Shown: positions 128 through 18,689 of the stretch, one piece after another
Layout of the letters: each line of letters starts with the position of its first letter
How positions within the stretch are numbered: the first letter of the stretch is position 1
IMG/VR virus record: IMGVR_UViG_3300027711_000002
Coordinates: 1 to 56,152 of that record
Reading direction: 5' to 3' (one strand)
Length of the DNA: 56,152 nucleotides
Source: a virus
Taxonomy: Duplodnaviria; Caudoviricetes
Position numbers and translations under genes: made by a program
The notes under the pieces: generated by a model
What the model saw: the letters and a program-made list of their open reading frames with translations, nothing else
Told to the model about the DNA's origin: nothing
The model's database searches: none

Positions 128-266
128 ACAGGACGTTGGAGTTCTCCGCGTCCCGCCACACGGCGGTCAGGTTGAACTGGAAGGACTCCTCGTCCCACTC
201 GATCTCACCGATGAACTCCAGTCCGAAGTTCCCCGGCCTGTTGTAGGGGTTGTCGTCCCAGCTCAT
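1..266 (-). CDS. Hypothetical protein spanning the assembly junction (5' part; continues at 55920-56152)
   Basis: ATG at 266-264 after AGTGAGGAG RBS; reads MSWDDNPYNRPGNFGLEFIGEIEW...GCSCPSPF... to a TGA at 55920. Confidence 0.8.
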   Translation of the reverse strand, partial: MSWDDNPYNRPGNFGLEFIGEIEWDEESFQFNLTAVWRDAENSNVLFWASDAGCSCPSPFEDLKGRDDLYTGTRMELQEYLEARVAEK

Positions 267-323
267 AGCACTCCTCACTTCTCGACTGCACTGTCTGTAA
301 TGTCCGCCATGATAGCGGGGAAG

Positions 324-354
324 GGGCGCGGATGTTGACAGATATCCGCGCCCC
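324..354. terminator. GC-rich hairpin, terminator-like
   Basis: GGGGCGCGGAT...ATCCGCGCCCC inverted repeat downstream of 370-666. Confidence 0.55.
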
Positions 355-369
355 AACCTCACACCATGG

Positions 370-666
370 TCACGACTTCGGGACCTTGGCCCGGGTGTTC
401 TCGCTGGCCCACTGGTCCAGCGCCGGAAGCTGGCCGATGCTCCAGCCGTAGTTGGCGTACCCGTTGTCCTGACGAATCGTCACAGCGGGCTCGGGCATGG
501 GGTTGGCCGCTCCCTTGCCCGGCCCGTACCGCTTGATCCACGAGTGCACAGCCTGGCGTGTGCGTCCGTACCTCTTGGCCAGAGCACCGATGCCCAGGTA
601 CTCCTCGCCGTCCTTGACGACGAGTTCTGCCGCCTCCTCCATGTCCTGCTCCTGTCTCTCGCTCAC
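370..666 (-). CDS. HTH DNA-binding protein
   Basis: IGALAKRYGRTRQAVHSWIKRY is HTH-like. Confidence 0.65.
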   Translation of the reverse strand: MSERQEQDMEEAAELVVKDGEEYLGIGALAKRYGRTRQAVHSWIKRYGPGKGAANPMPEPAVTIRQDNGYANYGWSIGQLPALDQWASENTRAKVPKS

Positions 667-872
667 GCCACCACGTCCTTCTGCTGGTGCTTGTTCAGGA
701 GGTGCCTCACGTAGAGCAGGCAGGCCAGGTTGACGGCTGCTGCCGCGCCGTTGCGCAGCATGTCTCCCGTGTCCTCGCCCGCCGACATGATGGCCAGCCC
801 GGCGTTCAGGCTGCCGAAGCCCATGTTCATGAGCACGGTGAACACGAGCACGGGGTTGTACGGGGTCCTCAC
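663..872 (-). CDS. Small membrane protein
   Basis: Two hydrophobic segments; 4-nt overlaps with both neighbours. Confidence 0.7.
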   Translation of the reverse strand: MRTPYNPVLVFTVLMNMGFGSLNAGLAIMSAGEDTGDMLRNGAAAAVNLACLLYVRHLLNKHQQKDVVA

Positions 873-1234
873 TGCCCGTCCTCCTGCTTCTGCCCCGAGG
901 CGGAGCCGACGAACTTCGGCGTCTTCAGTGCCGACAGCGCCCGCATCTGCGCGCGGTTGTACTGCGTGATCAGCCCGGCGTTGACCACCTCCAGCACACG
1001 CAGCGCTTCCCGCGCCGTGTGGCCCAGGAACCCGTTACCTCCGGGCACCAGCCCCGTGTCTCCGTAACCACCGATCCCGTCCGTGGCGGTGTGCAGGCGG
1101 TAGGGGATGCCGTTCATCCGCTCGGCCTCGATCAACACCAGGACCTGATCATCTCGGAGCAGTCCCACCTTGCGCATGTTCTTGCTGACGTTCTCCGACA
1201 TCTGACGAACGTGCTTCACAGTAACCCGACTCAT
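869..1234 (-). CDS. Hypothetical protein
   Basis: ATG at 1234 after AGTGAGGAG; packed in the operon. Confidence 0.75.
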   Translation of the reverse strand: MSRVTVKHVRQMSENVSKNMRKVGLLRDDQVLVLIEAERMNGIPYRLHTATDGIGGYGDTGLVPGGNGFLGHTAREALRVLEVVNAGLITQYNRAQMRALSALKTPKFVGSASGQKQEDGQ

Positions 1235-1300
1235 GTTACATCTCCTCACTCTTCCTCGGGCTGAACACCCGATCGGACTTCTCGCTGAGCACAGCCCTCC

Positions 1301-1396
1301 TCAGATGCTGATGAACAGCCAGATGATGCCGATGGTCAGCAGAGCACCGGCGGCCACGCCCACGGCGACACCCGCAGCCGTGGCCAAGAACTGCAT
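1301..1396 (-). CDS. 31-aa single-TM peptide
   Basis: MQFLATAAGVAVGVAAGALLTIGIIWLFISI; below the ORF-track cutoff. Confidence 0.5.
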   Translation of the reverse strand: MQFLATAAGVAVGVAAGALLTIGIIWLFISI

Positions 1397-1425
1397 GAGC
1401 AGGCTACCGCCTGCTCTCCTGCGCC

Positions 1426-1866
1426 TCACCATCCCTGCCGCCCGATGGTGCCCTCGTGGCTCAGCTCGGACCGCTCGGTCTCCACCCAGAAGAAGGACTG
1501 TCCCTTCAGGGCGTAGGAGGCCGTGTGCTGGTGCTGCGTGGTCGTCAGGCTGTGGCGGAAGGGCGGCATGTGCACACCACCCGAGCCGTCCACCCAGGCG
1601 ATCACGGTGTTGTACGACTCCACGATGTAGGCCACGTGCAGGCGCTCCATCTGGTCCGACATCGTGTGGAAGTACTCGGCGGGCAGCGCACCCTCACGAC
1701 CTTCGGCCGTTCCGTAGTACCCAACCACCTCCAGCGGGCGGTATCCCCTCATGCTGTGCTTGATGTCCAGGTAGTCCCGGACGTACTTGCTAGCCCGGAC
1801 GCCGAAGTCCAGCCGGTCCTCGATGGCGCGGCCCGCGTCCTTCATACGGATGTTCTGGAGCTGCAT
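1426..1866 (-). CDS. Hypothetical protein
   Basis: Start MQLQ after GAGGAG; GC3-rich codons. Confidence 0.75.
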   Translation of the reverse strand: MQLQNIRMKDAGRAIEDRLDFGVRASKYVRDYLDIKHSMRGYRPLEVVGYYGTAEGREGALPAEYFHTMSDQMERLHVAYIVESYNTVIAWVDGSGGVHMPPFRHSLTTTQHQHTASYALKGQSFFWVETERSELSHEGTIGRQGW

Positions 1867-1868
1867 GG

Positions 1869-2063
1869 TTACTTCTCCTCGTAGTTCGCGGGTAGTTCGT
1901 AAGCCGCAGCCAGTTTTTGGATGTCCTTGAGGGGGATACCGATCATGTCTCCGCCTCGATCCGCCAGCCACCCCTTGTCCACCCAGGCGAAGCCGTTACT
2001 GTCAACGGCCCACATGTGGCCATTGACTTTGAGCCATTCCCATGTCACAGGCTGTCTCTTCAC
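1869..2063 (-). CDS. Hypothetical protein
   Basis: GTG start after GGAGGAG, overlapping the upstream stop. Confidence 0.65.
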   Translation of the reverse strand: MKRQPVTWEWLKVNGHMWAVDSNGFAWVDKGWLADRGGDMIGIPLKDIQKLAAAYELPANYEEK

Positions 2064-2269
2064 TTCTCCTCCCGCAGGTCCTTGACCTGCACGCTCTCGT
2101 AGTCCGAGTGGACGTCTTCGAACCCGTTCCGGCACGCCTTGGACAGGTGCTGTGCACAGGTGTACGTGCCCTTGAGTTCCTTGTCCCGGTTCACCCAGCG
2201 CACCCAGAACGTAGCCACGGCACTGCACGTGAACTCTGGGTAGTTGGACTGCTTCTGTCTGCAACGCAT
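2060..2269 (-). CDS. Small Cys-containing hypothetical protein
   Basis: MRCRQ start after GAGG; CxxH motif. Confidence 0.65.
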   Translation of the reverse strand: MRCRQKQSNYPEFTCSAVATFWVRWVNRDKELKGTYTCAQHLSKACRNGFEDVHSDYESVQVKDLREEK

Positions 2270-2429
2270 CGCTACCTCTTCACCGCTGGCTGATCCCAGC
2301 AGGCAGGCCACAGCCCGAAGGCTGCGGCCCACCCTCCCGGATCAGGTGTCGTCGTCCTGCGAGCACCAGCCCTGTGCCTGCTGGCGCTCCTCCTCGCTCG
2401 CCTCACTCACCCACTCGGGGCGCTCGTCT

Positions 2430-2660
2430 TCAGGTCCGAGCACTGGCGGTCACCTCCTTCCAGGTCTTGTGACGGCTCTCGGCCATCGCGATGAACTCGG
2501 CGGCCTCGGCTTGGCGGCCGAAGTCGTAGGCGTCCATCAGGATGGACACGGTCAGGCGGATGACGTCCCGGTCCTCGGGGTCCGCCTTGCCGTCGAACTC
2601 GTCCCGGATGATCTCCAGCAGCTCCCGAGCCAGGGGCTTCAGCTCCTCACGCCTGCTCAC
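2430..2660 (-). CDS. Hypothetical protein
   Basis: GTGA overlap with upstream gene; typical codon usage. Confidence 0.7.
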   Translation of the reverse strand: MSRREELKPLARELLEIIRDEFDGKADPEDRDVIRLTVSILMDAYDFGRQAEAAEFIAMAESRHKTWKEVTASART

Positions 2661-3028
2661 TTGAGCCCCCAGTCCCGCTTGTCCTCGGTGGCCCAGGCGA
2701 ACAGCGTCGCCAAGTTCACCGCGATCACGGGGAACTCGTTGATGTACAGCACGATGTGCTGCTCGTTGGCGAGCGACTGGTAGGCGTCGACCGACCTTCC
2801 CCAGAACCCGGCGTTGTCGAAGCTGCGGCCGAAGTGCAGGGCCGTCAGGTCCTGCTCGTCCGGCTCGTGCCAGTCCAGACGGGTGCCCACCTCGTTGGCG
2901 AAGTAGGCCAGCTCCTCGCGCTCGTCAACGCGGATGGGGTCCTCGAACCGGTACGACATGGGCTTGGCCACGCGGTCTCGGATGGCCTTCTGCTTGGCGG
3001 TACGCGGCTTGTTGTGGTCCTCGGTCAC
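2657..3028 (-). CDS. Hypothetical protein
   Basis: RBS-like AGTGAAGAG; typical codon usage. Confidence 0.75.
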   Translation of the reverse strand: MTEDHNKPRTAKQKAIRDRVAKPMSYRFEDPIRVDEREELAYFANEVGTRLDWHEPDEQDLTALHFGRSFDNAGFWGRSVDAYQSLANEQHIVLYINEFPVIAVNLATLFAWATEDKRDWGLK

Positions 3029-3081
3029 TTCTCTTCACTCCCTGTCCAGCCGCCCGGCCTGTCGCCGGGCGGCGCTCTCAC

Positions 3082-3399
3082 TCAGCGGGGGTTGTTCAAG
3101 CTCGCGCTCTTGATGTTGGCTGCCGCCTTCTTGGCCGCCTTCAGTGCTCCGTTGCGACTGGTGTAGGACTGGAAGCCGTCCAGCGTGGTGATGTCGCCGT
3201 CGTCCCAGGCCCGGCGGATGGTGTACCGGCGGACGTCACCCTCGCGCCGCTCGCTGGTCACGAAGAGCGCGCCGTCCTCCAGCGGGAAGACGTCCTGCAT
3301 GACCCGGCTCTTGAAGAACCGCATCGTGTCCGGGCTGAAGTAGTGCTGGCCGATCTTGGCGTTGGCGTCCTTGATGGCCTGGATGCTGAAGAGTGCCAC
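3082..3399 (-). CDS. Hypothetical phage protein
   Basis: HYFSPDTMRFFKSR segment recalled from small phage proteins; RBS GAGAGG. Confidence 0.75.
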   Translation of the reverse strand: MALFSIQAIKDANAKIGQHYFSPDTMRFFKSRVMQDVFPLEDGALFVTSERREGDVRRYTIRRAWDDGDITTLDGFQSYTSRNGALKAAKKAAANIKSASLNNPR

Positions 3400-3515
3400 G
3401 GTCTTACCCTCTCACTCGGAAGTAATGTCAGTCATGTTAGTGCTCGAAGTGAGCAGACGGTACACGGACGGGGTCAGGGTCCGTGTGCCATCCTCCTACT
3501 TCGCGCCCGGCTGGC

Positions 3516-3764
3516 TCAGCCGAGGTTGCGAACCTCGGGCTCCAGGTTCTCCACCTCGTCCGCCTCGTAGACGGACAGAGCCTCGTTGTAGCAAAGGTTC
3601 TTCGCTACGGTGTGCTCACCGGTCACGGTGTCCAGGTACGCCCCCGTGCCAGGCAGGATCTCCCCGACCTTGATGCCGGTCCGCGCCGTCAGCTCAGCCA
3701 GGTCCCGCAGGAACTCGGCCAGGTTGTCCCGCACCTCGGGCCGAAGGTTGTCGTGCTCACCCAT
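3516..3764 (-). CDS. Hypothetical protein
   Basis: MGEHDNL start after GAGGAGTGAG. Confidence 0.7.
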   Translation of the reverse strand: MGEHDNLRPEVRDNLAEFLRDLAELTARTGIKVGEILPGTGAYLDTVTGEHTVAKNLCYNEALSVYEADEVENLEPEVRNLG

Positions 3765-6612: not shown

Positions 6613-6683
6613 TTCTCTCACTGCTGACACACTGTGGTGTGCGCCAACACCGCCGGTCCCCCGCAGGGGACCGACAGAATCGG

Positions 6684-7693: not shown

Positions 7694-7789
7694 GGCATAT
7701 CTCCACTTCTCACGAGGTTCTGAAAGATGGCTCATTCAGGCCGTGGTCTCTCACACCACAACGACGCGCACACCGCGCGTTTCGCCTTG

Positions 7790-8281
7790 TTACTGGAACG
7801 AAGCGGTCAGGTTCTCGGTACGGATGACCGAGAACTGTCGCGTTCCGTTCTCGTGTTCTCCCCACCAGTAGGCCAGCTTGCGCACGACCTTGACCGGCTT
7901 GCCCCAACGGCGCACCTGCGCTTCGGCTCCACCGAAGCTGTGCGCGGTGGTGCACGGGCGGTCCTCCCAAGACAGCGTGTAACTGACCTTGAGTTCACCG
8001 GTCGTGGGGACCATGACGTACTGCTGCACGGTCACCGGAGTGTTCAGCATCTCCGTCTGAACACGGTCACCATGCCGCTGCGTACGGATGCGCACGGTCT
8101 GACCAGTGGCGGACTCGATACGGCTGGCCAGGGTTCGGGCGGCATCTCGCGCCGCTCCACCCATCCGCGAACCGATCGACCGATTGTCCAGGTCGGCACT
8201 GTGCCCGACGTACACCGTCGTGATGTCGGTGCTGGTCGGGATGATGTCAACCCACTTGATTCCGGACATGTCACGCTCCAC
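7790..8281 (-). CDS. Hypothetical protein, first gene downstream of the ncRNA locus
   Basis: AGTGAGAAG/GGAG upstream; start 8281 or 8269. Confidence 0.7.
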   Translation of the reverse strand: MERDMSGIKWVDIIPTSTDITTVYVGHSADLDNRSIGSRMGGAARDAARTLASRIESATGQTVRIRTQRHGDRVQTEMLNTPVTVQQYVMVPTTGELKVSYTLSWEDRPCTTAHSFGGAEAQVRRWGKPVKVVRKLAYWWGEHENGTRQFSVIRTENLTASFQ

Positions 8282-8288
8282 TTCTCAC

Positions 8289-8560
8289 TACGCACACACC
8301 GTGTGTGCGTACGGCTTGCGCCGTGGGAGGGCAGGGATTGCAAGAGGGAACCCGGTTGGTTCGGCCCTGCCCTCTCACGACGGGAGAGTGTCACACCAGC
8401 ACACACGCACTCAGTCCGAAGACCAGACTGTGTGTGCGCTGCACTCTCCGCGCCGTTCGCCCTACCGTGGAGTAGTAGGACTTCCGTCCCGCCCGGTAGC
8501 GCGCTGTGCATTCCGCTGTGCGGATCACCCAACGCGCTACCCGTTCACCTGTGAAGGTGT
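8289..8560 (-). ncRNA. Multi-hairpin structured block (3' part of the P1 transcript or a leader)
   Basis: Inverted repeats TACGCACACAC/GTGTGTGCGTA, CGTGGGAGGGCAGGG/CCCTGCCCTCTCACG, GGAGAGTG/CACTCTCC, GGTAGCGCG/CGCGCTACC. Confidence 0.55.
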
Positions 8561-8565
8561 GGCGG

Positions 8566-8582
8566 TAACAGCATTGACATTA
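8566..8582 (+). promoter_or_regulatory. 17-bp operator-like motif (related copies at 298, 3423, 11171, 20613, 51443)
   Basis: TAACAGCATTGACATTA; consensus of six copies approx. TAACAkSAnTGACATTA. Confidence 0.6.
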
Positions 8583-8586
8583 CGAT

Positions 8587-9084
8587 ATGTAGGCGAGTCG
8601 CTAACTCACGTGCGTTCAGTTCCGGAGTCGGATCGGGCCGAAGCCCTCCCCGCAATCCTCCCCACAATCGGAGCTAAACCCGACTGCGAAGCCTACAATT
8701 CGGTGTCTTTTGGGAATCCAGAGGTTACCTAAACCCCCGCCATTCACCTTAGTCCGAAACTGCGCACGATATCCAGGAATCAAAGTGGCCCACCATCCGG
8801 CCGCTAGCCCACAAGGGGAGTGAGTGCCCAAATACTCGCACAATGCGTCTGATATGACGTCCAAGACTTCTGGCTGTGATACTAGGCCCCGAACTAGCCG
8901 TTATTCACGGGATCAGGGATTCTTTGGGTTGGCACATTCCACTCGGCTCGTGTGTCCAGTGGCGGGTAACCGCCCGATATTACCGCCCGGGAAACCCCGA
9001 ACGTTTCGTTTTACTGGTCTTTACTGCCTTTGGGACAGTCCCGAAGAATACTTCGCTAGCGCCAATGCGCTTGTGCTTTCAATT
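8587..9084 (-). ncRNA. Putative 16S rRNA 3' major (head) domain mimic RNA
   Basis: Colinear 16S-like landmarks: AATTGA..GCACAAGCG, GCGAAG, ACGAGC..CAACCC, GACGTCATATCA, CCCCTTGTG, TGGGCCAC, AATGGC, ATTCCCAAAAG, CGAATTGTAGGC...GCGACTCGCCTACAT. Confidence 0.55.
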
Positions 9085-9170
9085 AGCACTCACTATGGAT
9101 TTTTCCCAACTGCCGAACCGTCATGTTCACTGGGAACCGGTCCGCTTGTTCAGTTGGTGTTGCGTGTCCC

Positions 9171-9199
9171 ACGTTATCGGCTAGTGCCGTATCTGTCAA
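9171..9199 (-). promoter_or_regulatory. sigma70/HrdB-type promoter P1
   Basis: TTGACA-17 nt-TAACGT; spacer contains ATACGGCACTAG. Confidence 0.85.
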
Positions 9200-9222
9200 C
9201 CCCTAGTTTCTAGCGGATTGTG

Positions 9223-9443
9223 TGCTGCCCTCTTGCGAAGCAAGAAGTAAGTGGACAGAGTCCACCCGTGTCCGGTCGCCCAATGGACCGTAATCCACTA
9301 AGCCGGATACCCGTCATAGCCTAGGTGCGCCATTACCACACCTACTAGCTGATAGGCCGCGTGCCGACACTTTCCACGTCGTACACACGTGTTACTCACC
9401 CAACGCCGCCAATCCACCCCTAAAGGCTTCCCGACGACTCGCA
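9223..9443 (-). ncRNA. Miniature 16S rRNA 5'-domain mimic (about h5-h7 and h11-h14)
   Basis: GAAGCCTTTAGGGGTGGATTGGCGGCGTTGGGTGAGTAACACGTG and GCGGCCTATCAGCTAGTAGGTGTGGTAATGGCGCACCTAGGCTATGACGGGTATCCGG...GGGCGACCGGACAC...GGCAGCA match actinobacterial 16S with compensatory stem changes. Confidence 0.88.
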
Positions 9444-9517
9444 CTTGCGAGACACGCTATTCAGGAGTCAAACACCGGGGCCGGAGCCCCGCCGTCGCCC
9501 GTTGGCGACTGATCAAC

Positions 9518-9546
9518 AACCTAGTGCCTAGTGCCGTATGTGTCAA
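9518..9546 (-). promoter_or_regulatory. sigma70/HrdB-type promoter P2
   Basis: TTGACA-17 nt-TAGGTT; same spacer motif. Confidence 0.85.
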
Positions 9547-9559
9547 CCCCGTTGTTTGT

Positions 9560-9820
9560 ACCGACTTGTGTAGCAACCCCGGACCGAACCGGTCGCCCGG
9601 TTTCACTTACCCATACGGGAGAGTGACCTAGGCCAGTAGCTACGCGATACGAACGGGAAGACACGGCAGGAACCGAGTCATGACCGGCCGCTGTAGGCCA
9701 GACATCCGAACGCGCTTGTCTCGCGTTGTAGGACACGCTGTGGAGTTTTCAAGCGGTAGGACTTGCGTCCCGTGGCCCCCCGCTGGGAGCCCCGCCGTTC
9801 GGCTGACTGCTCCGAACTGG
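9560..9820 (-). ncRNA. Putative structured ncRNA from P3
   Basis: No credible ORF; leader shared with the P2 unit, GNAA hairpin, boxA-like CTTGAAAACTCCACAGCGTGTC. Confidence 0.5.
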
Positions 9821-9825
9821 TCACC

Positions 9826-9854
9826 AACTTAGGTCCTAGTGCCGTATCCGTCAA
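9826..9854 (-). promoter_or_regulatory. sigma70/HrdB-type promoter P3
   Basis: TTGACG-17 nt-TAAGTT; same spacer motif. Confidence 0.85.
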
Positions 9855-10265
9855 CTCAACTGTGTACCGACTTTTGTTTGCCCTGGCCAAGTGCGGTAAA
9901 TCGAACACTGTTCGATCGGCCGGTAAGGGGTTGGGAGGGTCCGAGGTGGAGACCTCAGCCCGCGCGTATCGCGTGCGTGTGCGCACAGAGGTTCTAGAAC
10001 GCGCGTAGACGCCTCGGGAGGGGCGAACCGGGGAACGAGTCGGAGAAGACAACACAGCGGCGAGGAAGGCCAAGAGCCCGCGCGCGCGCAGGGTACGCGC
10101 ACACGCGCGCGGAATCGGTGCGCTCTGGGTTGTGCGAACTGGTGTTCGTTGGCGGTAATCGGACAAGAGAAGTCGGGGACGAGTGACGCATACGCACAGT
10201 GAGGGTCGCGGGGAGGGGGCGGGAAGTGGTGTTTGTGCAGGTGGGAGGGGGTGCGTAAGGGGGTG

Positions 10266-10922
10266 CGCAACCATACCGGCCACAAGTGGAAAGGTGGGAT
10301 GTATTGGTGTTTGCGCAGGTCAGAAGGGGTGAGTGGCCAGGATGGTTGTATTTTCGCTTGGTGGGTGGGTGTGAGTGATGGTGTGTGTGGAGAAACAGTA
10401 ACGACAGAAACATTTGACAGAAGTAAAGTTTACCGGGGCAAAGGTATATAGGCTGCCCCCTCGAAATCTCGCACTTTTACAACCAACCATGCCACACGCT
10501 CGCATTGGTGCAGGTGAAAGCATGTGGCCAGAATGGTTGCAACAACCAACCATGCCACAACCGGTGTGGCAGGTTTGGTTGCACCGGCGCGTTTGCGCAG
10601 GTCAGACTAGGTGGCAGGGTTGGTTGTATTTAGGTGACCCTTACTGGCAGGAATGGTTGCATGTGGCAGGCGTGGTTGTGGCCCATGCGTGAAAAGGCAC
10701 GGCTGTATTAAGAATGGTCACCGGCAGGTCTCTGCCTACTCCTATTCCGTGACCTAGCATTCTGATACAAGCCTGATGCCAGGCCGTGACCTTACACTGT
10801 ATGTGGCAGGAATCGTTGCATATTTTGGTGACTCTGAGTAATGGTTGACAGAATGGCGCAACCATGCCTGCCACAGCTAGGGGGTAGAGGGTGGCAGGAA
10901 TGGTTGTTTGTGCAGGTCAGAC
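10266..10922. repeat. Array of about 12 degenerate 18-mers (GTGGCAGGAATGGTTGCA) in both orientations plus TTTGYGCAGGTCAGA repeats; candidate ori or pac region
   Basis: Forward copies at 10333, 10524, 10566, 10611, 10644, 10663, 10803, 10891; inverted copies at 10266, 10478, 10541, 10857. Confidence 0.8.
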
Positions 10923-11170
10923 CATATGTATGGTAGATAACGAGTGAGAATGAAGTGAGAGTGTGGCGAGAGTGTGGCGCGTGGCGGTGTGCATGTGGCG
11001 GTGGCGAGGCTGAGAGCAGGGCGAATAAACCATTGAAGACAGGGGGTGACTAAACCAATACTGGCAGTAGGCCCTATAAAGTAGGGGAGGTGACCGCCCC
11101 ACGACCTCGCTCGACCCCACACGTCTGGCCCCATACGTCAAAAAATCTCGCGCCTCGCGCGCACGTGTGG

Positions 11171-11187
11171 TAATGTCAGTGCCATGA
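11171..11187 (+). promoter_or_regulatory. -10 box of a probable leaderless promoter overlapping a 17-bp operator
   Basis: TGG-TAATGT then 7 nt then ATG at 11184; no SD. Confidence 0.6.
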
Positions 11188-15257: not shown

Positions 15258-18200
15258 GTGCAGGGAGAACTGGGAGTCGTACACGAGGCCGTGGCCTCTC
15301 TGCGCGTGGACGGCGTTCAGGACTCGTACCGGCTCAACCCTCCGGGCTGGGCCAAGGACGTGTTGGGTGTGCACCTGTGGTCGAAGCAGCGCGAGATCAC
15401 CGAGTCGGTGCGTGATCACAAGCGCACGGTGGTGGCGTCCTGCCACGGCTCGGGCAAGGCCCTGGCTCTGGACACGGAGCTGCCCACGCCCACGGGCTGG
15501 ACCACCATGGGCGAGGTGCAGCCGGGGGACGAGCTGATCGGGGTGGACGGCCGGGCGGCCAAGGTGGTGGCCGTCACCCCTGAGTGGGAGGTGGACACCT
15601 ACGAGGTCGTCTTCTCGGACGGCACCACCATTACCTGCTCGGGCGACCACGAGTGGAACACGCTGCCCGCCAAGGTGCGCAACCGTATCCGGGTACAGTG
15701 CCACCGCGATGACATGGCGGTGGACTGGTCGTTCTGGTGGCACTTGACCGAGACCTACACCACCGTCGAGCTGGCCGAAAGCCTGCGCACGAACACCTAC
15801 GAGCACAACCACGCGGTCCCGCTGCCCAGCGGCATCGAGGGCGTGGAGACGGCGTTCGTGGAGGCCCCCTACGAGATGGCCACACGCTACGGGCCGACCA
15901 ACATGGTGGGGGACAAGCTTCTGCGCTCGGCCAAGTGGCAGCGGTGGGAGTTCATCCAGGGCCTGGCCGACCGCCTCGCGCACGTGGACCGCACGGGGGC
16001 CGTAGTCTTCATGCTCACCGATCCGCTGGACGCCGAGCGCACGGTGGAGCTAGTGCGCGCCTCGGGCAAGGCCATGGTCACGCGCCGCTACGAGGACAAG
16101 TCCGGTAACTGGCGTGTGGTGGCTCGCATCGAGGAGTCGCCGTTCGCGCACAACGCCGACGAGGACGCGCGCTGGAGAGAGCGCAACCACGGCAAGCGGA
16201 CCTACAGCCGCAACACCGCGCGCATGATCGTGGACGTACGGCGTGTGCCCACGGTCAAGACGAAATGCGTCCAGGTGGACGCACCGCACAACCTGTATCT
16301 GGCCGGGCGCGAGATGGTGCCCACGCACAACTCCATGATCGCTTCGGTGATCTCGGCGTGGTTCGTGAGCGTCCACCCGCCCGGCCAGGCCATCGTCATC
16401 ACCACGGCTCCGACCTACCACCAGGTCAACGCCATCCTCTGGGAGGAGCTGCGCAAGCACCACCGGGCGGCCCAGGCAGCGGGCCTACCGCTGCCCGGCA
16501 AGATCACGCAGGACAACCAGTGGAAGCTCAGCGACGGCACGCTCATCGGCATGGGCCGCAAGCCCGCTGACGGCGACGCACACGCCTTCCAGGGCATCCA
16601 CCGGCCCTACGTCCTGGTCGTGATCGACGAGGCATGCCACGACGATCAGACGGACGTACTGACCGACCAGGGGTGGAAGCGCTTTGCTGACCTGGACGGT
16701 AGTGAGCGTCTACTGACGATGGACGCCCAAACCCATGAGGCGTACTACGACAAGCCCGTCAAGCTCGTGTCTAAGCCCTACAGCGGCCCTATGCACTACT
16801 ACAGCGCCAAGGGCCTGAACTACGCGGTGACGCCTGACCACACCATGCTCTACGGCCAGCGCAAGCACGGCAAGCCGTTGGACTGGAGGACGCAGGAGCG
16901 CCAGGAGATCGCCACCTGGAACAACAAGTTCGTGAAGAAGGTGATCGACTGGGGCCAGCCGGACGATGCTGAGCTGTCGGATGACTGGCTGACGTTCCTG
17001 GGCTGGTTCGGGTCGGAAGGGTCGATCAGCAAGGACCTGACGCGCGTGTGCATCACGCAGTCGGCCGAACGCGAGGCGTACCAGCGCATCTTCGAGCTGT
17101 GCGAGCGTCTGGGCTTCAATCCCAAGAAGCACGGTGACCACGTGCTGATCAACTCCACCAAGCTGGCTCGGGAGTTGGCGCAGTGGGGGCGCACACAGCT
17201 CGTGCGCCGTGTTCCCGACTTCGTGCGCAATGCGTCCGCGCGACAGATTGGGGTCTACCTGGACGCCTACGCCGAGGGCGACGGGTACTGGCACGGTACT
17301 CGTGAGGTGATCTATACCAGCTCTCCACAGATGGCTGACGACCTCCAGGAGCTAATCCTGAAGACGGGCATGCCTTCTGTCGTATCCAAGCGTGAGCTGG
17401 CGGGAAAGCAGACCACGTTCCCGGATGGGCACGTGGCTACGTCCTCTGTGGACGGGTACGTGGTGACGAGACCTTACCGGTCCTCCAACGCCAAGATGTA
17501 CAACGAGAATGAGCAGGTCAACCACTACGAGGGCATGGTCTACTGTGCGACGATGCCCAAGGATCACCTGCTGTTCACTCGCCGCAACGGGTACACCATG
17601 TGGTCAGGCAACTGCGGCGTGCCCGAGGAGCTGTGGACCGGCGTCGAGGCCATCACCACCACCGCCAACTCCCGCATCCTGGCCATCGGTAACCCCGACG
17701 ACCGGGACACGGAGTTCGGCCGGGTGTTCCTGGACGAGCGCTACGCCTCGATGTGGAACCGGATCTCGATCCCCGCCAGCGTCACGCCGAACTTCACCGG
17801 TGAACCCGTGCCCATGCCGCTGCCGGACGTGCTGGTGCAGCGGGACTGGGTGGACGAGCGTCGGCGGGCCTGGACCGAGGACGACCCGCGCTACATGTCC
17901 AAGGTCGAGGCGAAGTTCCCCGAGCAGGGTGTGATGAGTCTGTTCGGCCCGGCCGTCCTGGCACGCGGCTTCGACCAGGACAACCTCCCCAAGCCGGACG
18001 GCAAGCTCAAGATCGGCGTGGACCCGGCGCGCTTCGGTGACGACCGCACGACGGTGGTGGCCCGGCGCGGGCGGCTCATGTGGGTCGTGGACTCGTGGCA
18101 GGGCATGGACACCGTGCAGACCGCGCACAAGGTGATGAACCTTGCCGACGAGCTGCGCGAGGTGGACGACAACGGCAAGAAGGCCGAGTTCGACGTGGAG

Positions 18201-18689
18201 ATCCGCGTGGACGTCGTGGGCCTCGGCGCTGGTGTGGTGGACACCCTGGCCTTCGAGCACCGCAAGCTGGAGGCCGAGGGTCAGGCGTGGTTCACCGTCA
18301 TCGAGATGAACGGTGCGGCTGCCCCGCCGCTGGAGCAGGGCGGTTCAGTGCAGGGTTACGGCAACGCCCGAGCGTACTGGTACGACAAGCTCAAGCAGGG
18401 GATGGCCAACGGCAGCCGCCGTGTGGTCGAGCACGAGCTGGCCAGGGACGAGCTGGAAGGCATCCGCTTCAACTACCGCACCTCCAAGATGTACATCGAG
18501 ACCAAGGAGGAGATGCGCAAGCGGGGTGTGAAGTCTCCTGACTACGCGGACGGCATGGTCTACGCCAGCGCAGAGATCTTCGACGGCCCCCAGGACGGGG
18601 ACACCATGACCAGTCCAGCGGAGGACATCGCCAACGCGGAGCTGGAGGAGATGCTGGAGGCCGCCGAGATGATGATCAGCCCGTACTGA
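15258..18689 (+). CDS. terL: Terminase large subunit with two inteins (about 526 aa spliced)
   Basis: Walker A SCHGSGK|S, Walker B VVIDEA|C, IGNP, nuclease GVDPARFGDD and SPDYADG. Confidence 0.95.
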   Translation: MQGELGVVHEAVASLRVDGVQDSYRLNPPGWAKDVLGVHLWSKQREITESVRDHKRTVVASCHGSGKALALDTELPTPTGWTTMGEVQPGDELIGVDGRAAKVVAVTPEWEVDTYEVVFSDGTTITCSGDHEWNTLPAKVRNRIRVQCHRDDMAVDWSFWWHLTETYTTVELAESLRTNTYEHNHAVPLPSGIEGVETAFVEAPYEMATRYGPTNMVGDKLLRSAKWQRWEFIQGLADRLAHVDRTGAVVFMLTDPLDAERTVELVRASGKAMVTRRYEDKSGNWRVVARIEESPFAHNADEDARWRERNHGKRTYSRNTARMIVDVRRVPTVKTKCVQVDAPHNLYLAGREMVPTHNSMIASVISAWFVSVHPPGQAIVITTAPTYHQVNAILWEELRKHHRAAQAAGLPLPGKITQDNQWKLSDGTLIGMGRKPADGDAHAFQGIHRPYVLVVIDEACHDDQTDVLTDQGWKRFADLDGSERLLTMDAQTHEAYYDKPVKLVSKPYSGPMHYYSAKGLNYAVTPDHTMLYGQRKHGKPLDWRTQERQEIATWNNKFVKKVIDWGQPDDAELSDDWLTFLGWFGSEGSISKDLTRVCITQSAEREAYQRIFELCERLGFNPKKHGDHVLINSTKLARELAQWGRTQLVRRVPDFVRNASARQIGVYLDAYAEGDGYWHGTREVIYTSSPQMADDLQELILKTGMPSVVSKRELAGKQTTFPDGHVATSSVDGYVVTRPYRSSNAKMYNENEQVNHYEGMVYCATMPKDHLLFTRRNGYTMWSGNCGVPEELWTGVEAITTTANSRILAIGNPDDRDTEFGRVFLDERYASMWNRISIPASVTPNFTGEPVPMPLPDVLVQRDWVDERRRAWTEDDPRYMSKVEAKFPEQGVMSLFGPAVLARGFDQDNLPKPDGKLKIGVDPARFGDDRTTVVARRGRLMWVVDSWQGMDTVQTAHKVMNLADELREVDDNGKKAEFDVEIRVDVVGLGAGVVDTLAFEHRKLEAEGQAWFTVIEMNGAAAPPLEQGGSVQGYGNARAYWYDKLKQGMANGSRRVVEHELARDELEGIRFNYRTSKMYIETKEEMRKRGVKSPDYADGMVYASAEIFDGPQDGDTMTSPAEDIANAELEEMLEAAEMMISPY
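15459..16331 (+). mobile_element. Ala-start (class 3-type) intein, 291 aa, in Walker A
   Basis: ALALDTELPTP...DHEW...KCVQV...PTHN|S; W-C-T signature; degenerate LAGLIDADG remnant. Confidence 0.88.
16635..17612 (+). mobile_element. Intein, 326 aa, with LAGLIDADG homing endonuclease, after Walker B
   Basis: CHDDQTDVLT...VTPDH...FLGWFGSEGS...YLDAYAEGDG...WSGN|C. Confidence 0.92.

What the first reader, a model, noticed from the sequence alone, without database searches (positions are those of the whole stretch)
8289..9860. Phage-encoded mini-rrn locus: three promoter / boxA / rRNA-mimic RNA units
Seen: about 1.6 kb without credible ORFs, holding three near-consensus leftward promoters. Each is followed by a boxA-like sequence and a structured segment; at least one, probably two, resemble 16S rRNA domains. 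Known: phages often carry tRNAs but not normally rRNA, and actinobacterial rrn operons use tandem promoters with boxA antitermination. Inference: the phage transcribes abundant rRNA-domain mimics. They could be decoys for rRNA-cleaving defence toxins, sponges for r-proteins or assembly factors, or scaffolds for an rrn-type antitermination complex that carries RNA polymerase through the left arm. I know of no described system like this.
Basis: partly seen in the sequence, partly recalled or inferred. Interest (0 to 1): 0.96.

Follow-up and report, generated by a model that had tools for sequence, protein, structure and literature searches.

The report
Phage mini-16S RNA in rRNA-style leader
This soil phage, like several cultured Streptomyces phages, carries a shrunken but correctly folding piece of 16S ribosomal RNA behind a copy of the host's rRNA-operon leader signal, a kind of phage RNA that I found described in no paper.

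Summary
The core observation is real. The window is a complete 56-kb high-GC phage. It has no credible ORF from 8282 to 11183. Three copies of one promoter-like 19-mer point left. Rfam places a 221-nt match to bacterial 16S (64 bits; helices h6-h14, with h8-h10 replaced by a 13-nt stub) behind the middle one.

Two claims fail. Only the first leader (P3) matches the actinobacterial rrn leader motif, not all three. Units A and C show no rRNA likeness.

The 16S piece is neither a chimera nor a one-off. Ten distinct versions occur in phage DNA, including Streptomyces phages Stella and Omar. In these, 24 of 42 base pairs change on both sides and helix 11 is almost invariant. Nine of the ten have an rrn-leader motif on the same strand within 900 nt. 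Several have one on each side, as leader and spacer boxA flank 16S.

A close relative replaces the piece with 89 other bases, so it is an accessory cassette.

Best reading (0.5): an rRNA-style early leader recruits host Nus factors and carries a selected module that keeps the uS17-binding junction. No binding or transcription was tested.

This scan has noted phage boxA leaders on other DNA, but not a 16S piece.

The parts
9826..9854 (-). P3 promoter-like site: TTGACG, 17 nt, TAAGTT
   Evidence: One of 3 exact copies of the 19-mer. The homologous site in L006 has an 18-nt spacer.
9759..9772 (-). GNRA-capped hairpin (GGGAC-GCAA-GUCC) just upstream of the leader motif, boxB-like in position
   Evidence: Sequence and centroid fold. 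A near copy lies at 8478-8490 (repeat D4).
9734..9752 (-). rrn-leader (boxA/boxC region) motif, TTGAAAACTCCACAGCGTG
   Evidence: One mismatch to the motif; the match is exact in L006. In hosts the motif lies 106-225 nt upstream of 16S in 8 of 8 loci checked. Host-leader HMM: E 0.016 and 1.2e-3.
9550..9733 (-). Unit A cargo: non-coding, partly conserved, no known family
   Evidence: No Rfam match, no match to host rrn operons, fold z -1.44.
9518..9546 (-). P2 promoter-like site: TTGACA, 17 nt, TAGGTT
9453..9471 (-). Degenerate leader-like motif behind two hairpins; not significant
   Evidence: 4 substitutions from the motif. HMM E 0.93. Hairpins seen in the fold.
9223..9443 (-). Mini-16S RNA: h6 stub, h7, h11, h12 with an inserted hairpin, h13, h14; h8-h10 replaced by 13 nt. 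The conserved core is 9268-9399.
   Evidence: Rfam 64.1 bits. Model R1 151.8 bits. Covariation. A relative swaps exactly 9220-9446 for 89 other letters.
9171..9199 (-). P1 promoter-like site: TTGACA, 17 nt, TAACGT
   Evidence: This site and its first ~130 nt of leader are almost identical in L006.
8273..9168 (-). Unit C: 896-nt highly structured untranslated leader running up to the first gene. Its ends are conserved and its ~480-nt middle is variable.
   Evidence: Fold -387.6 kcal/mol, z -6.64, with 0 of 20 shuffles folding as well. Alignment A1. No Rfam or rRNA likeness.
8460..8490 (-). Second copy of the GNRA hairpin followed by ACUCCACGG, a possible remnant of a leader motif
   Evidence: Repeat D4. 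It lies in a 55-nt block identical in L006. Not scored by the HMM.
7790..8272 (-). First gene of the leftward operon (160 aa, no known family)
   Evidence: Nine homologue clusters at 72-92% identity.
7724..7787 (-). Type II hammerhead-like motif just after the first gene; in this window the core reads CUGAAUGAG
   Evidence: L014 40 bits and Omar 47.8 bits against a gathering score of 37; L006 25.6 bits. The window copy was aligned and is below the gathering score.

Best explanation
The 8.3-9.9 kb stretch is the untranslated early-left leader of an actinophage, and it is built like the start of a host rRNA operon.

Inferred from sequence: three tandem sigma-A-type promoters fire leftward into one long, highly folded RNA that runs into gene 8272-7790.

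Shown by sequence, function inferred: behind P3 lie a hairpin and a near copy of the actinobacterial rrn leader signal (boxA/boxC region). In cells this signal loads NusB/NusE/NusA onto RNA polymerase and makes it resistant to Rho. The phage would use it to carry polymerase through about 1.5 kb of untranslated RNA into its early genes.

Shown: behind P2 sits an accessory cassette, a true but miniaturised derivative of the 16S 5' domain. It keeps the h7-h11-h12 three-way junction, caps the deleted arms with short stable loops, and is under selection for that fold in ten phage versions.

Inferred: h7 and h11 form the uS17-binding domain of 16S, so the module most likely binds uS17 (or another factor that reads h11) as it is transcribed. 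That would make the phage leader look and behave like nascent pre-16S.
For: 1. Rfam scores above the gathering score of 50: window 64.1, L014 63.2, L006 50.4, Stella 85.4, L191 71.2, Omar 68.4 and L145 60.5 bits.

2. Covariation across 11 aligned sequences: 91.6% of cells are paired, 24 of 42 pairs change on both sides, 0 of 500 shuffles reach this, and slid controls give 6-10 pairs. In h11, 8 of 11 pairs never vary and 100% are paired. The same trend holds with 4 and with 6 sequences.

3. h8-h10 is replaced by different short stubs in different lineages, including UACG, UUCG and UCCG loops.

4. The leader motif is specific to actinobacterial rrn leaders. All 80 genome titles shown are actinobacterial by my reading, and the motif lies 106-225 nt upstream of 16S in 8 of 8 loci checked.

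5. Nine of 10 mini-16S copies have a same-strand leader-HMM hit within 900 nt at E<=1.2e-3: upstream in 7, downstream in 5, on both sides in 3.

6. The motif, usually behind a GC hairpin, occurs in Streptomyces phages that lack the mini-16S, mostly twice per locus. It occurs in 49 IMG/VR stretches, and blastn with one Streptomyces 16S found no real 16S in those loci.

7. The terminator-like scan found 5 sites against 2.8 +/- 1.4 expected, and the only sites on the - strand inside the units form one weak overlapping pair at 9267-9249. This fits read-through.

8. [quoted passage not shown] Passages of PMC2724277 describe rrn boxA binding by NusB/NusE and M. tuberculosis NusA binding boxC.
Against: Only 1 of the 3 window leaders is a significant match, and modestly so: E 0.016, and 10 of 100 shuffles of the window give at least one hit at up to 3 mismatches.

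Omar has no leader-HMM hit within the DNA held.

The mini-16S is dispensable. A relative that differs at 47 of about 1,530 aligned letters (about 97% identical) swaps it for 89 other letters. FlowerPower, Dennebes, Percastrophe, Immanuel3 and JXY1 lack it while Stella has it.

uS17 binding is inferred only. The h9 and central-domain contacts that I recall for S17 are absent from the module.

RNA contigs show no excess depth over this stretch (29.5 against 53.3 and 32.9) and cannot show strand or ends.

The covariation alignments were fitted to the 16S-derived structure, which favours it.

Nus binding, Rho resistance and promoter activity were not tested.
Confidence: 0.5

Rival explanations
1. 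The mini-16S is mainly a trans-acting sponge. Made in quantity, it titrates uS17 or an early 30S assembly factor and so stalls host ribosome biogenesis. The rrn-style leader only ensures that it is made.
For: The h7/h11 junction is the S17 domain. h11 and its unpaired bases are nearly invariant in phage copies while other helices covary. The module sits behind a strong-looking promoter and is a swappable accessory, as host-takeover functions often are.
Against: No evidence of abundance: depth is 29.5 against 33-53 for neighbouring genes (weak data). A sponge would need to compete with thousands of nascent 16S copies. No terminator defines a discrete small RNA.
Confidence: 0.2
2. The mini-16S is a decoy for a host defence that cuts or senses 16S rRNA.
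For: It is an accessory, patchily distributed cassette, as counter-defence genes often are.
Against: I know of no rRNA-targeting toxin that acts on h7, h11 or h12; those I recall act at the decoding site, the anti-Shine-Dalgarno end or 23S. Nothing in the window links it to a defence system. The tight link to rrn leader motifs is not explained.
Confidence: 0.07
3. It is a decaying, functionless remnant of host rDNA picked up with an rrn promoter and leader.
For: It is clearly derived from actinobacterial-type 16S. It lies next to a leader-like motif, as a captured rrn 5' end would. It is lost in close relatives.
Against: Ten versions keep pairing through 24 double changes. Deleted arms are neatly capped with stable loops that differ between lineages. 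Unpaired h11 bases stay fixed. Identity to real 16S is only 75-78%, yet the Rfam structure score stays above the gathering score in 7 sequences.
Confidence: 0.06
4. The three 19-mers are binding sites for a phage regulator rather than promoters, or as well as promoters. The whole 2.9-kb gap would then be a control/origin region whose RNA content is incidental.
For: The spacer (ATACGGCACTAG) is conserved between copies, which promoters do not need. Next to the stretch lies an array of at least 11 copies of an 18-mer in both orientations, at the GC-skew switch.
Against: In L006 the spacer of P3 differs while the -35 and -10 stay in place. This reading does not explain the structural conservation of the mini-16S or the leader motifs.
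Confidence: 0.07
5. It is an assembly chimera or rRNA contamination.
For: Metagenome origin. rRNA reads of other organisms do pile up on 9302-9365.
Against: The same element is in two further assemblies, L014 and L006, and in complete genomes of cultured phages. It carries internal deletions with compensated stems that no cellular 16S would have.
Confidence: 0.01

Closest known systems
Actinobacterial rrn operon 5' end (tandem promoters, hairpin-boxA-boxC leader, 16S 5' domain, spacer boxA)
   Same: Tandem promoters. A hairpin plus a leader motif matching at 18 of 19 positions (exact in L006). A 16S-derived h7-h11-h12 fold downstream. Leader motifs on both sides of the 16S piece in some phages.
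   Different: No full 16S, 23S or 5S. The 16S piece covers helices within model 56-353 only, with h8-h10 removed. The operon continues into protein genes. It sits on a phage.
Lambda nutL/nutR and other phage antitermination sites (N-dependent boxA/boxB; HK022 put RNA)
   Same: A phage early-transcript signal related to rrn boxA that would modify host RNA polymerase. Background from passages of PMC2724277.
   Different: Here the copy extends through the host boxA/boxC region. No N-like protein was identified, though I did not search specifically. It is joined to an rRNA-derived module. HK022 put is recalled, not checked.
Ribosomal-protein operon leaders that mimic rRNA binding sites
   Same: An RNA outside the ribosome that reproduces an r-protein binding site of rRNA.
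   Different: Those leaders are short convergent mimics in front of r-protein genes. This one is a true homologue of 16S (Rfam SSU hit) of 110-220 nt, on phages, in front of unrelated small genes. The first genes of the window, Omar and Stella are not homologous.
Virus-encoded translation RNAs: phage tRNAs and tmRNA; the '18S rRNA intronic region' copies of Tupanvirus
   Same: A virus carrying a piece of host translation-machinery RNA.
   Different: tRNAs are complete functional molecules. For the Tupanvirus case I saw only the search listing and the start of the abstract of PMC5829246, and it concerns a eukaryotic giant virus. No phage case turned up in 7 searches.

Membership tests
Bacterial SSU rRNA (Rfam RF00177) | Score at or above the curated gathering score | tested here: met
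   64.1 bits against 50. Also met in L014, L006, Stella, L191, Omar and L145. L146 and L192-L194 are below it.
Bacterial SSU rRNA (Rfam RF00177) | Full-length 16S with central, 3' major and 3' minor domains (a working rRNA gene) | tested here: not met
   Only model positions 56-353 of 1533 are matched, with 100 nt of h8-h10 replaced by 13 nt. There is no other SSU match at E<=10 nearby. It is a fragment derivative, not an rRNA gene.
rrn antitermination leader (hairpin-boxA-boxC) | Sequence match to the host-clade leader motif | tested here: met
   P3 leader: 1 mismatch and HMM E 0.016 or 1.2e-3. Not met for P2 (E 0.93) or P1 (no hit).
rrn antitermination leader (hairpin-boxA-boxC) | Placed on the transcript just downstream of a promoter and behind a hairpin | tested here: met
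   The motif starts about 75 nt after the P3 -10. Hairpins at about 9790-9773 and 9772-9759 appear in the centroid fold. Promoter activity itself was not tested.
rrn antitermination leader (hairpin-boxA-boxC) | Binds NusB/NusE (and NusA) and confers Rho resistance | not testable with these tools
   Needs binding and transcription assays.
Ribosomal-protein autoregulatory leader | Lies in the 5' UTR of an r-protein gene that it regulates | tested here: not met
   The first downstream gene has no Pfam or PHROG family. The first genes differ between the window, Omar and Stella.
Known large structured non-coding RNAs (GOLLD, ROOL, HEARO and others in Rfam 15) | Covariance-model match | tested here: not met
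   In 8000-10500 at E<=10 there was only the SSU match plus three chance-level matches to a miRNA, an sRNA and a lncRNA family.
uS17-binding domain of 16S (h7-h11 junction) | h7, h11 and their junction present with conserved unpaired bases | tested here: met
   Alignment A6: h11 pairs are 100% kept, and the apical loop GGUAAYGGC and the internal-loop bases are conserved. The definition of the domain comes from passages of PMC5591316.
uS17-binding domain of 16S (h7-h11 junction) | Actually binds uS17 | not testable with these tools
   The complex predictor takes proteins only. Needs a gel-shift or pull-down experiment.

The most novel reading that the evidence does not exclude
Actinophages disguise their early transcripts as pre-rRNA. 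A boxA / mini-16S / boxA cassette loads the host rrn antitermination complex. The minimised h7-h11-h12 junction captures uS17 as it is transcribed. The cell's rRNA transcription, folding and protection machinery then works for the phage leader, and early 30S assembly may be starved at the same time. This would be a new class of phage RNA: an autonomously folding rRNA domain kept as a mobile accessory module.
Probability: 0.3. Interest if true: 0.92.

Novelty: categorically new. Interest (0 to 1): 0.86.

Why it matters
Phages are known to carry tRNAs, tmRNA and ribosomal proteins. I found no description of a conserved, structurally selected fragment of ribosomal RNA on a phage.

The fragment is a natural minimisation experiment on the 16S 5' domain. 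It shows which helices fold and are useful on their own, namely the h7-h11-h12 junction.

It is tied to copies of the host rrn leader signal. That points to factor-independent use of the rrn antitermination complex by actinophages, and this is directly testable because Stella, Omar and their Streptomyces hosts are in culture.

In GenBank the Stella element lies partly under a 'hypothetical protein' call (gene 90, opposite strand), so annotation would also change.

The boxA half of the story is a variant of known phage biology. The mini-16S half is what I rate as new. Its function is still inferred.

Tried and rejected
Second rRNA mimic.

Phage-specific h11 signature. I first thought GUAGG/CCUAG was a shared derived state of the phage copies, since 0 of 12 actinobacterial h11 sequences have it. 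I dropped the idea. The contig-end hit L195 carries the same state, and by my recollection it is typical E. coli-type 16S. L195 has h11 only and lies at a contig end, so I do not count it as a phage mini-16S, although it is one of the 11 rows of A6.

A conserved protein partner. The first genes downstream in the window, Omar and Stella show no similarity (E 0.2-3.3).

More relatives. Of the 5 records reached through the portal and gene-7790 searches (four through the portal), only the record already known as L006 had the element. The region's DNA matched 0 of 4 records. G001 is a 41-kb fragment, so its blank says nothing. The promoter 19-mer found 4 IMG/VR stretches, of which only the L006 record is a relative, and there were no Rfam hits in them.

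RNA runs. X16, X17 and X19 pile up at 9302-9365 with loose ends on both sides. That is real rRNA of other organisms, not evidence for this RNA. Small contigs of X16, X17 and X19 on 8255-8551, 8734-9151 and 9473-9786 show presence in RNA libraries only. Uncovered parts mean nothing.

Papers. Searches found nothing on phage rRNA fragments or actinophage boxA. PMC1276712 and PMC420393 are not held, so the exact M. tuberculosis boxA/boxC letters are from recall. Supplements were closed and not needed.

More than 30 Logan/ENA contigs of close relatives could not be fetched, so the structures of units A and C could not be tested by covariation.
Full report
WHAT THE WINDOW IS. The window is one complete IMG/VR virus record of 56,152 bp with a 127-bp direct terminal repeat. 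It has 64% G+C. It encodes a terminase carrying a LAGLIDADG insertion, a portal protein, a family-A DNA polymerase, a primase and a helicase. It also has one tRNA-Pro gene. Genes left of 8272 run leftward and genes right of 11184 run rightward. A GC3-based filter passes no ORF between these points. Eight mechanical ORFs in 8044-10413 have no PHROG or Pfam match at E<=0.01 (0 of 8). The finding covers the left 1.6 kb of this 2.9-kb non-coding divergent region.

PROMOTER-LIKE REPEATS. TTGACNNATACGGCACTAG occurs three times on the - strand, starting at 9854, 9546 and 9199. It occurs nowhere else with up to three mismatches. In 100 shuffles the mean was 0.07 and none had three matches (see also repeat D1). 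Each copy reads TTGAC(A/G), 17 nt, then TAAGTT, TAGGTT or TAACGT. An E. coli-type consensus scan did not score them (0 sites). They fit the actinobacterial TANNNT type only by my recollection. In the relative L006 the -35 and -10 hexamers stay in place while the P3 spacer changes. That favours promoters over operators, but activity is untested.

THE 16S PIECE. Rfam places SSU_rRNA_bacteria at 9443-9223 (-): 64.1 bits against a gathering score of 50, E 6.6e-16, model positions 56-353. The alignment shows a short h6, then h7, h11, h12, h13 and h14. The 100 model positions of h8-h10 are replaced by 13 nt, and 18 nt are inserted in the h12 loop. Folding the P2 unit alone recovers these helices (z -3.15). 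Identity to real actinobacterial 16S is 75-78%, so this is not a recent capture or a chimeric join.

WHAT IS NOT rRNA-LIKE. No other SSU or LSU match appears at E<=10 in 8000-10500. All 73 blastn matches to 120 host rrn loci fall in 9457-9266. Unit A folds no better than shuffles (z -1.44). Unit C, 896 nt up to the first start codon, is very structured (z -6.64) but matches no family. It has conserved ends and a variable middle of similar length in L006.

THE LEADER MOTIF. I took the sequence behind P3, as it stands in L006, loosened it to TTGAGAACTCNAYAGYGTG, and scanned one genome per prokaryote species. All 80 titles shown are actinobacterial genera or Actinomycetota MAGs, by my reading of the names. 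In 8 of 8 loci checked with Rfam, the motif lies 106-225 nt upstream of the 16S start on the same strand. It is therefore the actinobacterial rrn leader signal. Its naming as the boxA/boxC region rests on recall and on passages of PMC2724277 about rrn boxA and M. tuberculosis NusA binding boxC.

The window has the motif once, at 9752-9734, with one mismatch. That is modest on its own, because 10 of 100 shuffles give a hit at up to 3 mismatches. L006 has it exactly (1 of 200 shuffles). A profile of 116 host leaders gives E 0.016 for the P3 site against the whole target set and 1.2e-3 against the local set. It gives only E 0.93 for P2 and nothing for P1. A GNRA-capped hairpin precedes the P3 motif. 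A near copy of that hairpin, followed by ACUCCACGG, lies at 8490-8460 inside a 55-nt block identical in L006. So 'boxA after each promoter' holds for one of the three.

RELATIVES AND THE FAMILY. Close relatives with the same layout are L014 (95.8% identical over 3.7 kb; SSU 63.2 bits) and L006 (first gene 75% identical; SSU 50.4 bits; h6 and h13-h14 absent).

A blastn search then led to cultured phages. Streptomyces phage Stella has a 109-nt version: 85.4 bits, model 106-311, with h8-h10 reduced to a UACG loop. It lies near the right genome end, partly under an opposite-strand 'hypothetical protein' call. Streptomyces phage Omar has a 118-nt version scoring 68.4 bits.

My covariance model R1 and two IMG/VR pattern scans added L145, L146 and L191-L194. 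L145 and L146 are phage contigs by their terminase, portal and endolysin genes. The other four are viral only by IMG/VR's classification. That makes ten distinct phage versions. An eleventh hit, L195, is h11 only at a contig end and looks like ordinary 16S, so I do not count it.

On the 11-row alignment, 91.6% of cells pair and 24 of 42 pairs change on both sides. None of 500 shuffles reaches this, and slid controls give 6-10 pairs. In h11, 8 of 11 pairs never vary and none is broken. The four- and six-sequence sets behave alike. One caveat applies: the alignments were fitted to the 16S-derived structure. The stubs that replace h8-h10 differ between lineages and include UACG, UUCG and UCCG loops. 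This looks like repeated selection for a compact, stable junction.

LINK BETWEEN MINI-16S AND LEADER MOTIFS. Within 900 nt on the same strand, 9 of 10 versions have a leader-HMM hit at E<=1.2e-3.
- Upstream in 7: window, L006, Stella, L191, L145, L146, L192.
- Downstream in 5: Stella, L191, L194, L193, L146.
- On both sides in 3.
- Omar has none.
This echoes the leader boxA and spacer boxA that flank 16S in cells.

The motif also occurs, mostly twice and mostly behind a GC hairpin, in FlowerPower, Dennebes, Percastrophe, Immanuel3 and JXY1. These phages lack the mini-16S (0 of 5 loci hit by R1 at E<=1). It is also in 49 IMG/VR stretches. Blastn with one Streptomyces 16S found no real 16S in the fetched loci. 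One stretch looks like a host leader and one looks like chance.

THE MINI-16S IS AN ACCESSORY CASSETTE. In an RNA library from compost (run X15), a 1,666-nt contig of a relative covers 8257-9219 and 9447-10012, differing at 47 letters. Between the two pieces it has 89 other letters in place of the 227 nt that make up the mini-16S. Stella has the module while its genus-mates do not.

EXPRESSION DATA. Twenty of the 24 listed runs hold the stretch or part of it. They are soil, compost, bovine and sheep-gut metagenomes, and six are RNA runs. All laid runs are kept as contigs, so strand and ends are not visible. In X15 the contig over the finding has depth 29.5, against 53.3 and 32.9 for the gene contigs beside it. 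Short contigs over 10046-11117 reach 209-3,651. So I have no evidence that the P1-P3 units are abundant. There is a hint that the abundant RNA lies just to the right. The library was polyA-selected, which limits what it shows.

MECHANISM. Shown: a 16S-derived, structurally selected RNA module on phages, tied to copies of the host rrn leader signal, upstream of leftward early genes, with no convincing terminator between the units. Inferred: promoter activity, Nus-factor loading and Rho resistance, and binding of uS17. [quoted passage not shown] I put 0.5 on the combined reading. The rivals are listed separately in the report.

NOVELTY. Seven full-text searches found no report of a phage-borne rRNA fragment or of actinophage boxA. 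Earlier notes of this scan describe rrn-type boxA leaders on other phages, which I did not check. None describes a 16S piece on other DNA. Use of boxA by phages is a known kind of thing; the mini-16S family is what I rate as new.

Noticed in passing
window 7724-7787 (-); L014:4457-4522; L138:1717-1781; L006:6495-6561: A type II hammerhead ribozyme motif sits immediately after the first gene of the leftward operon. It scores 40 bits in L014 and 47.8 bits in Streptomyces phage Omar (gathering score 37) and 25.6 bits in L006. The window's copy has an extra A in the CUGAUGAG core and is below threshold. The first genes are unrelated, so the layout of leader, first gene and hammerhead recurs at the RNA level.
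   Followed up: partly
window 10260-10920: At least 11 copies of an 18-mer like GTGGCAGGAATGGTTGC, in both orientations, interleaved with four copies of GTTTGYGCAGGTCAGA. They lie in ORF-free DNA at the GC-skew switch and look like iterons or multiple operator sites.
   Followed up: partly
window 10046-11117: In RNA run X15, short contigs over this stretch have depths of 209-3,651, against 29-53 for everything around it. This may be an abundant RNA just right of the finding. Strand and ends are unknown, and the library was polyA-selected.
   Followed up: no
window 6625-6646 (-) and 8273-8300 (-): Two leftward genes share a start region of the type CACA(C)GTGTG..AGTGAGA(G)AAGTGGAGCG, a few nt, then ATG. 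At 6646 it is preceded by a GC hairpin.
   Followed up: no
window 15258-18689 (+): The large terminase ORF (1,143 aa) has its terminase matches split (residues 42-167 and 788-1109) around a LAGLIDADG domain at 667-721. This looks like an intein or homing-endonuclease insertion.
   Followed up: no
L136:2551-2844 (Stella gene 90) and L136:1884-2222 (gene 89): Two annotated 'hypothetical protein' genes of Stella lie on the opposite strand, one over the mini-16S and one over a leader-like motif. FlowerPower and 4 other sampled relatives have no gene called in the homologous gap, so these calls may be spurious.
   Followed up: no
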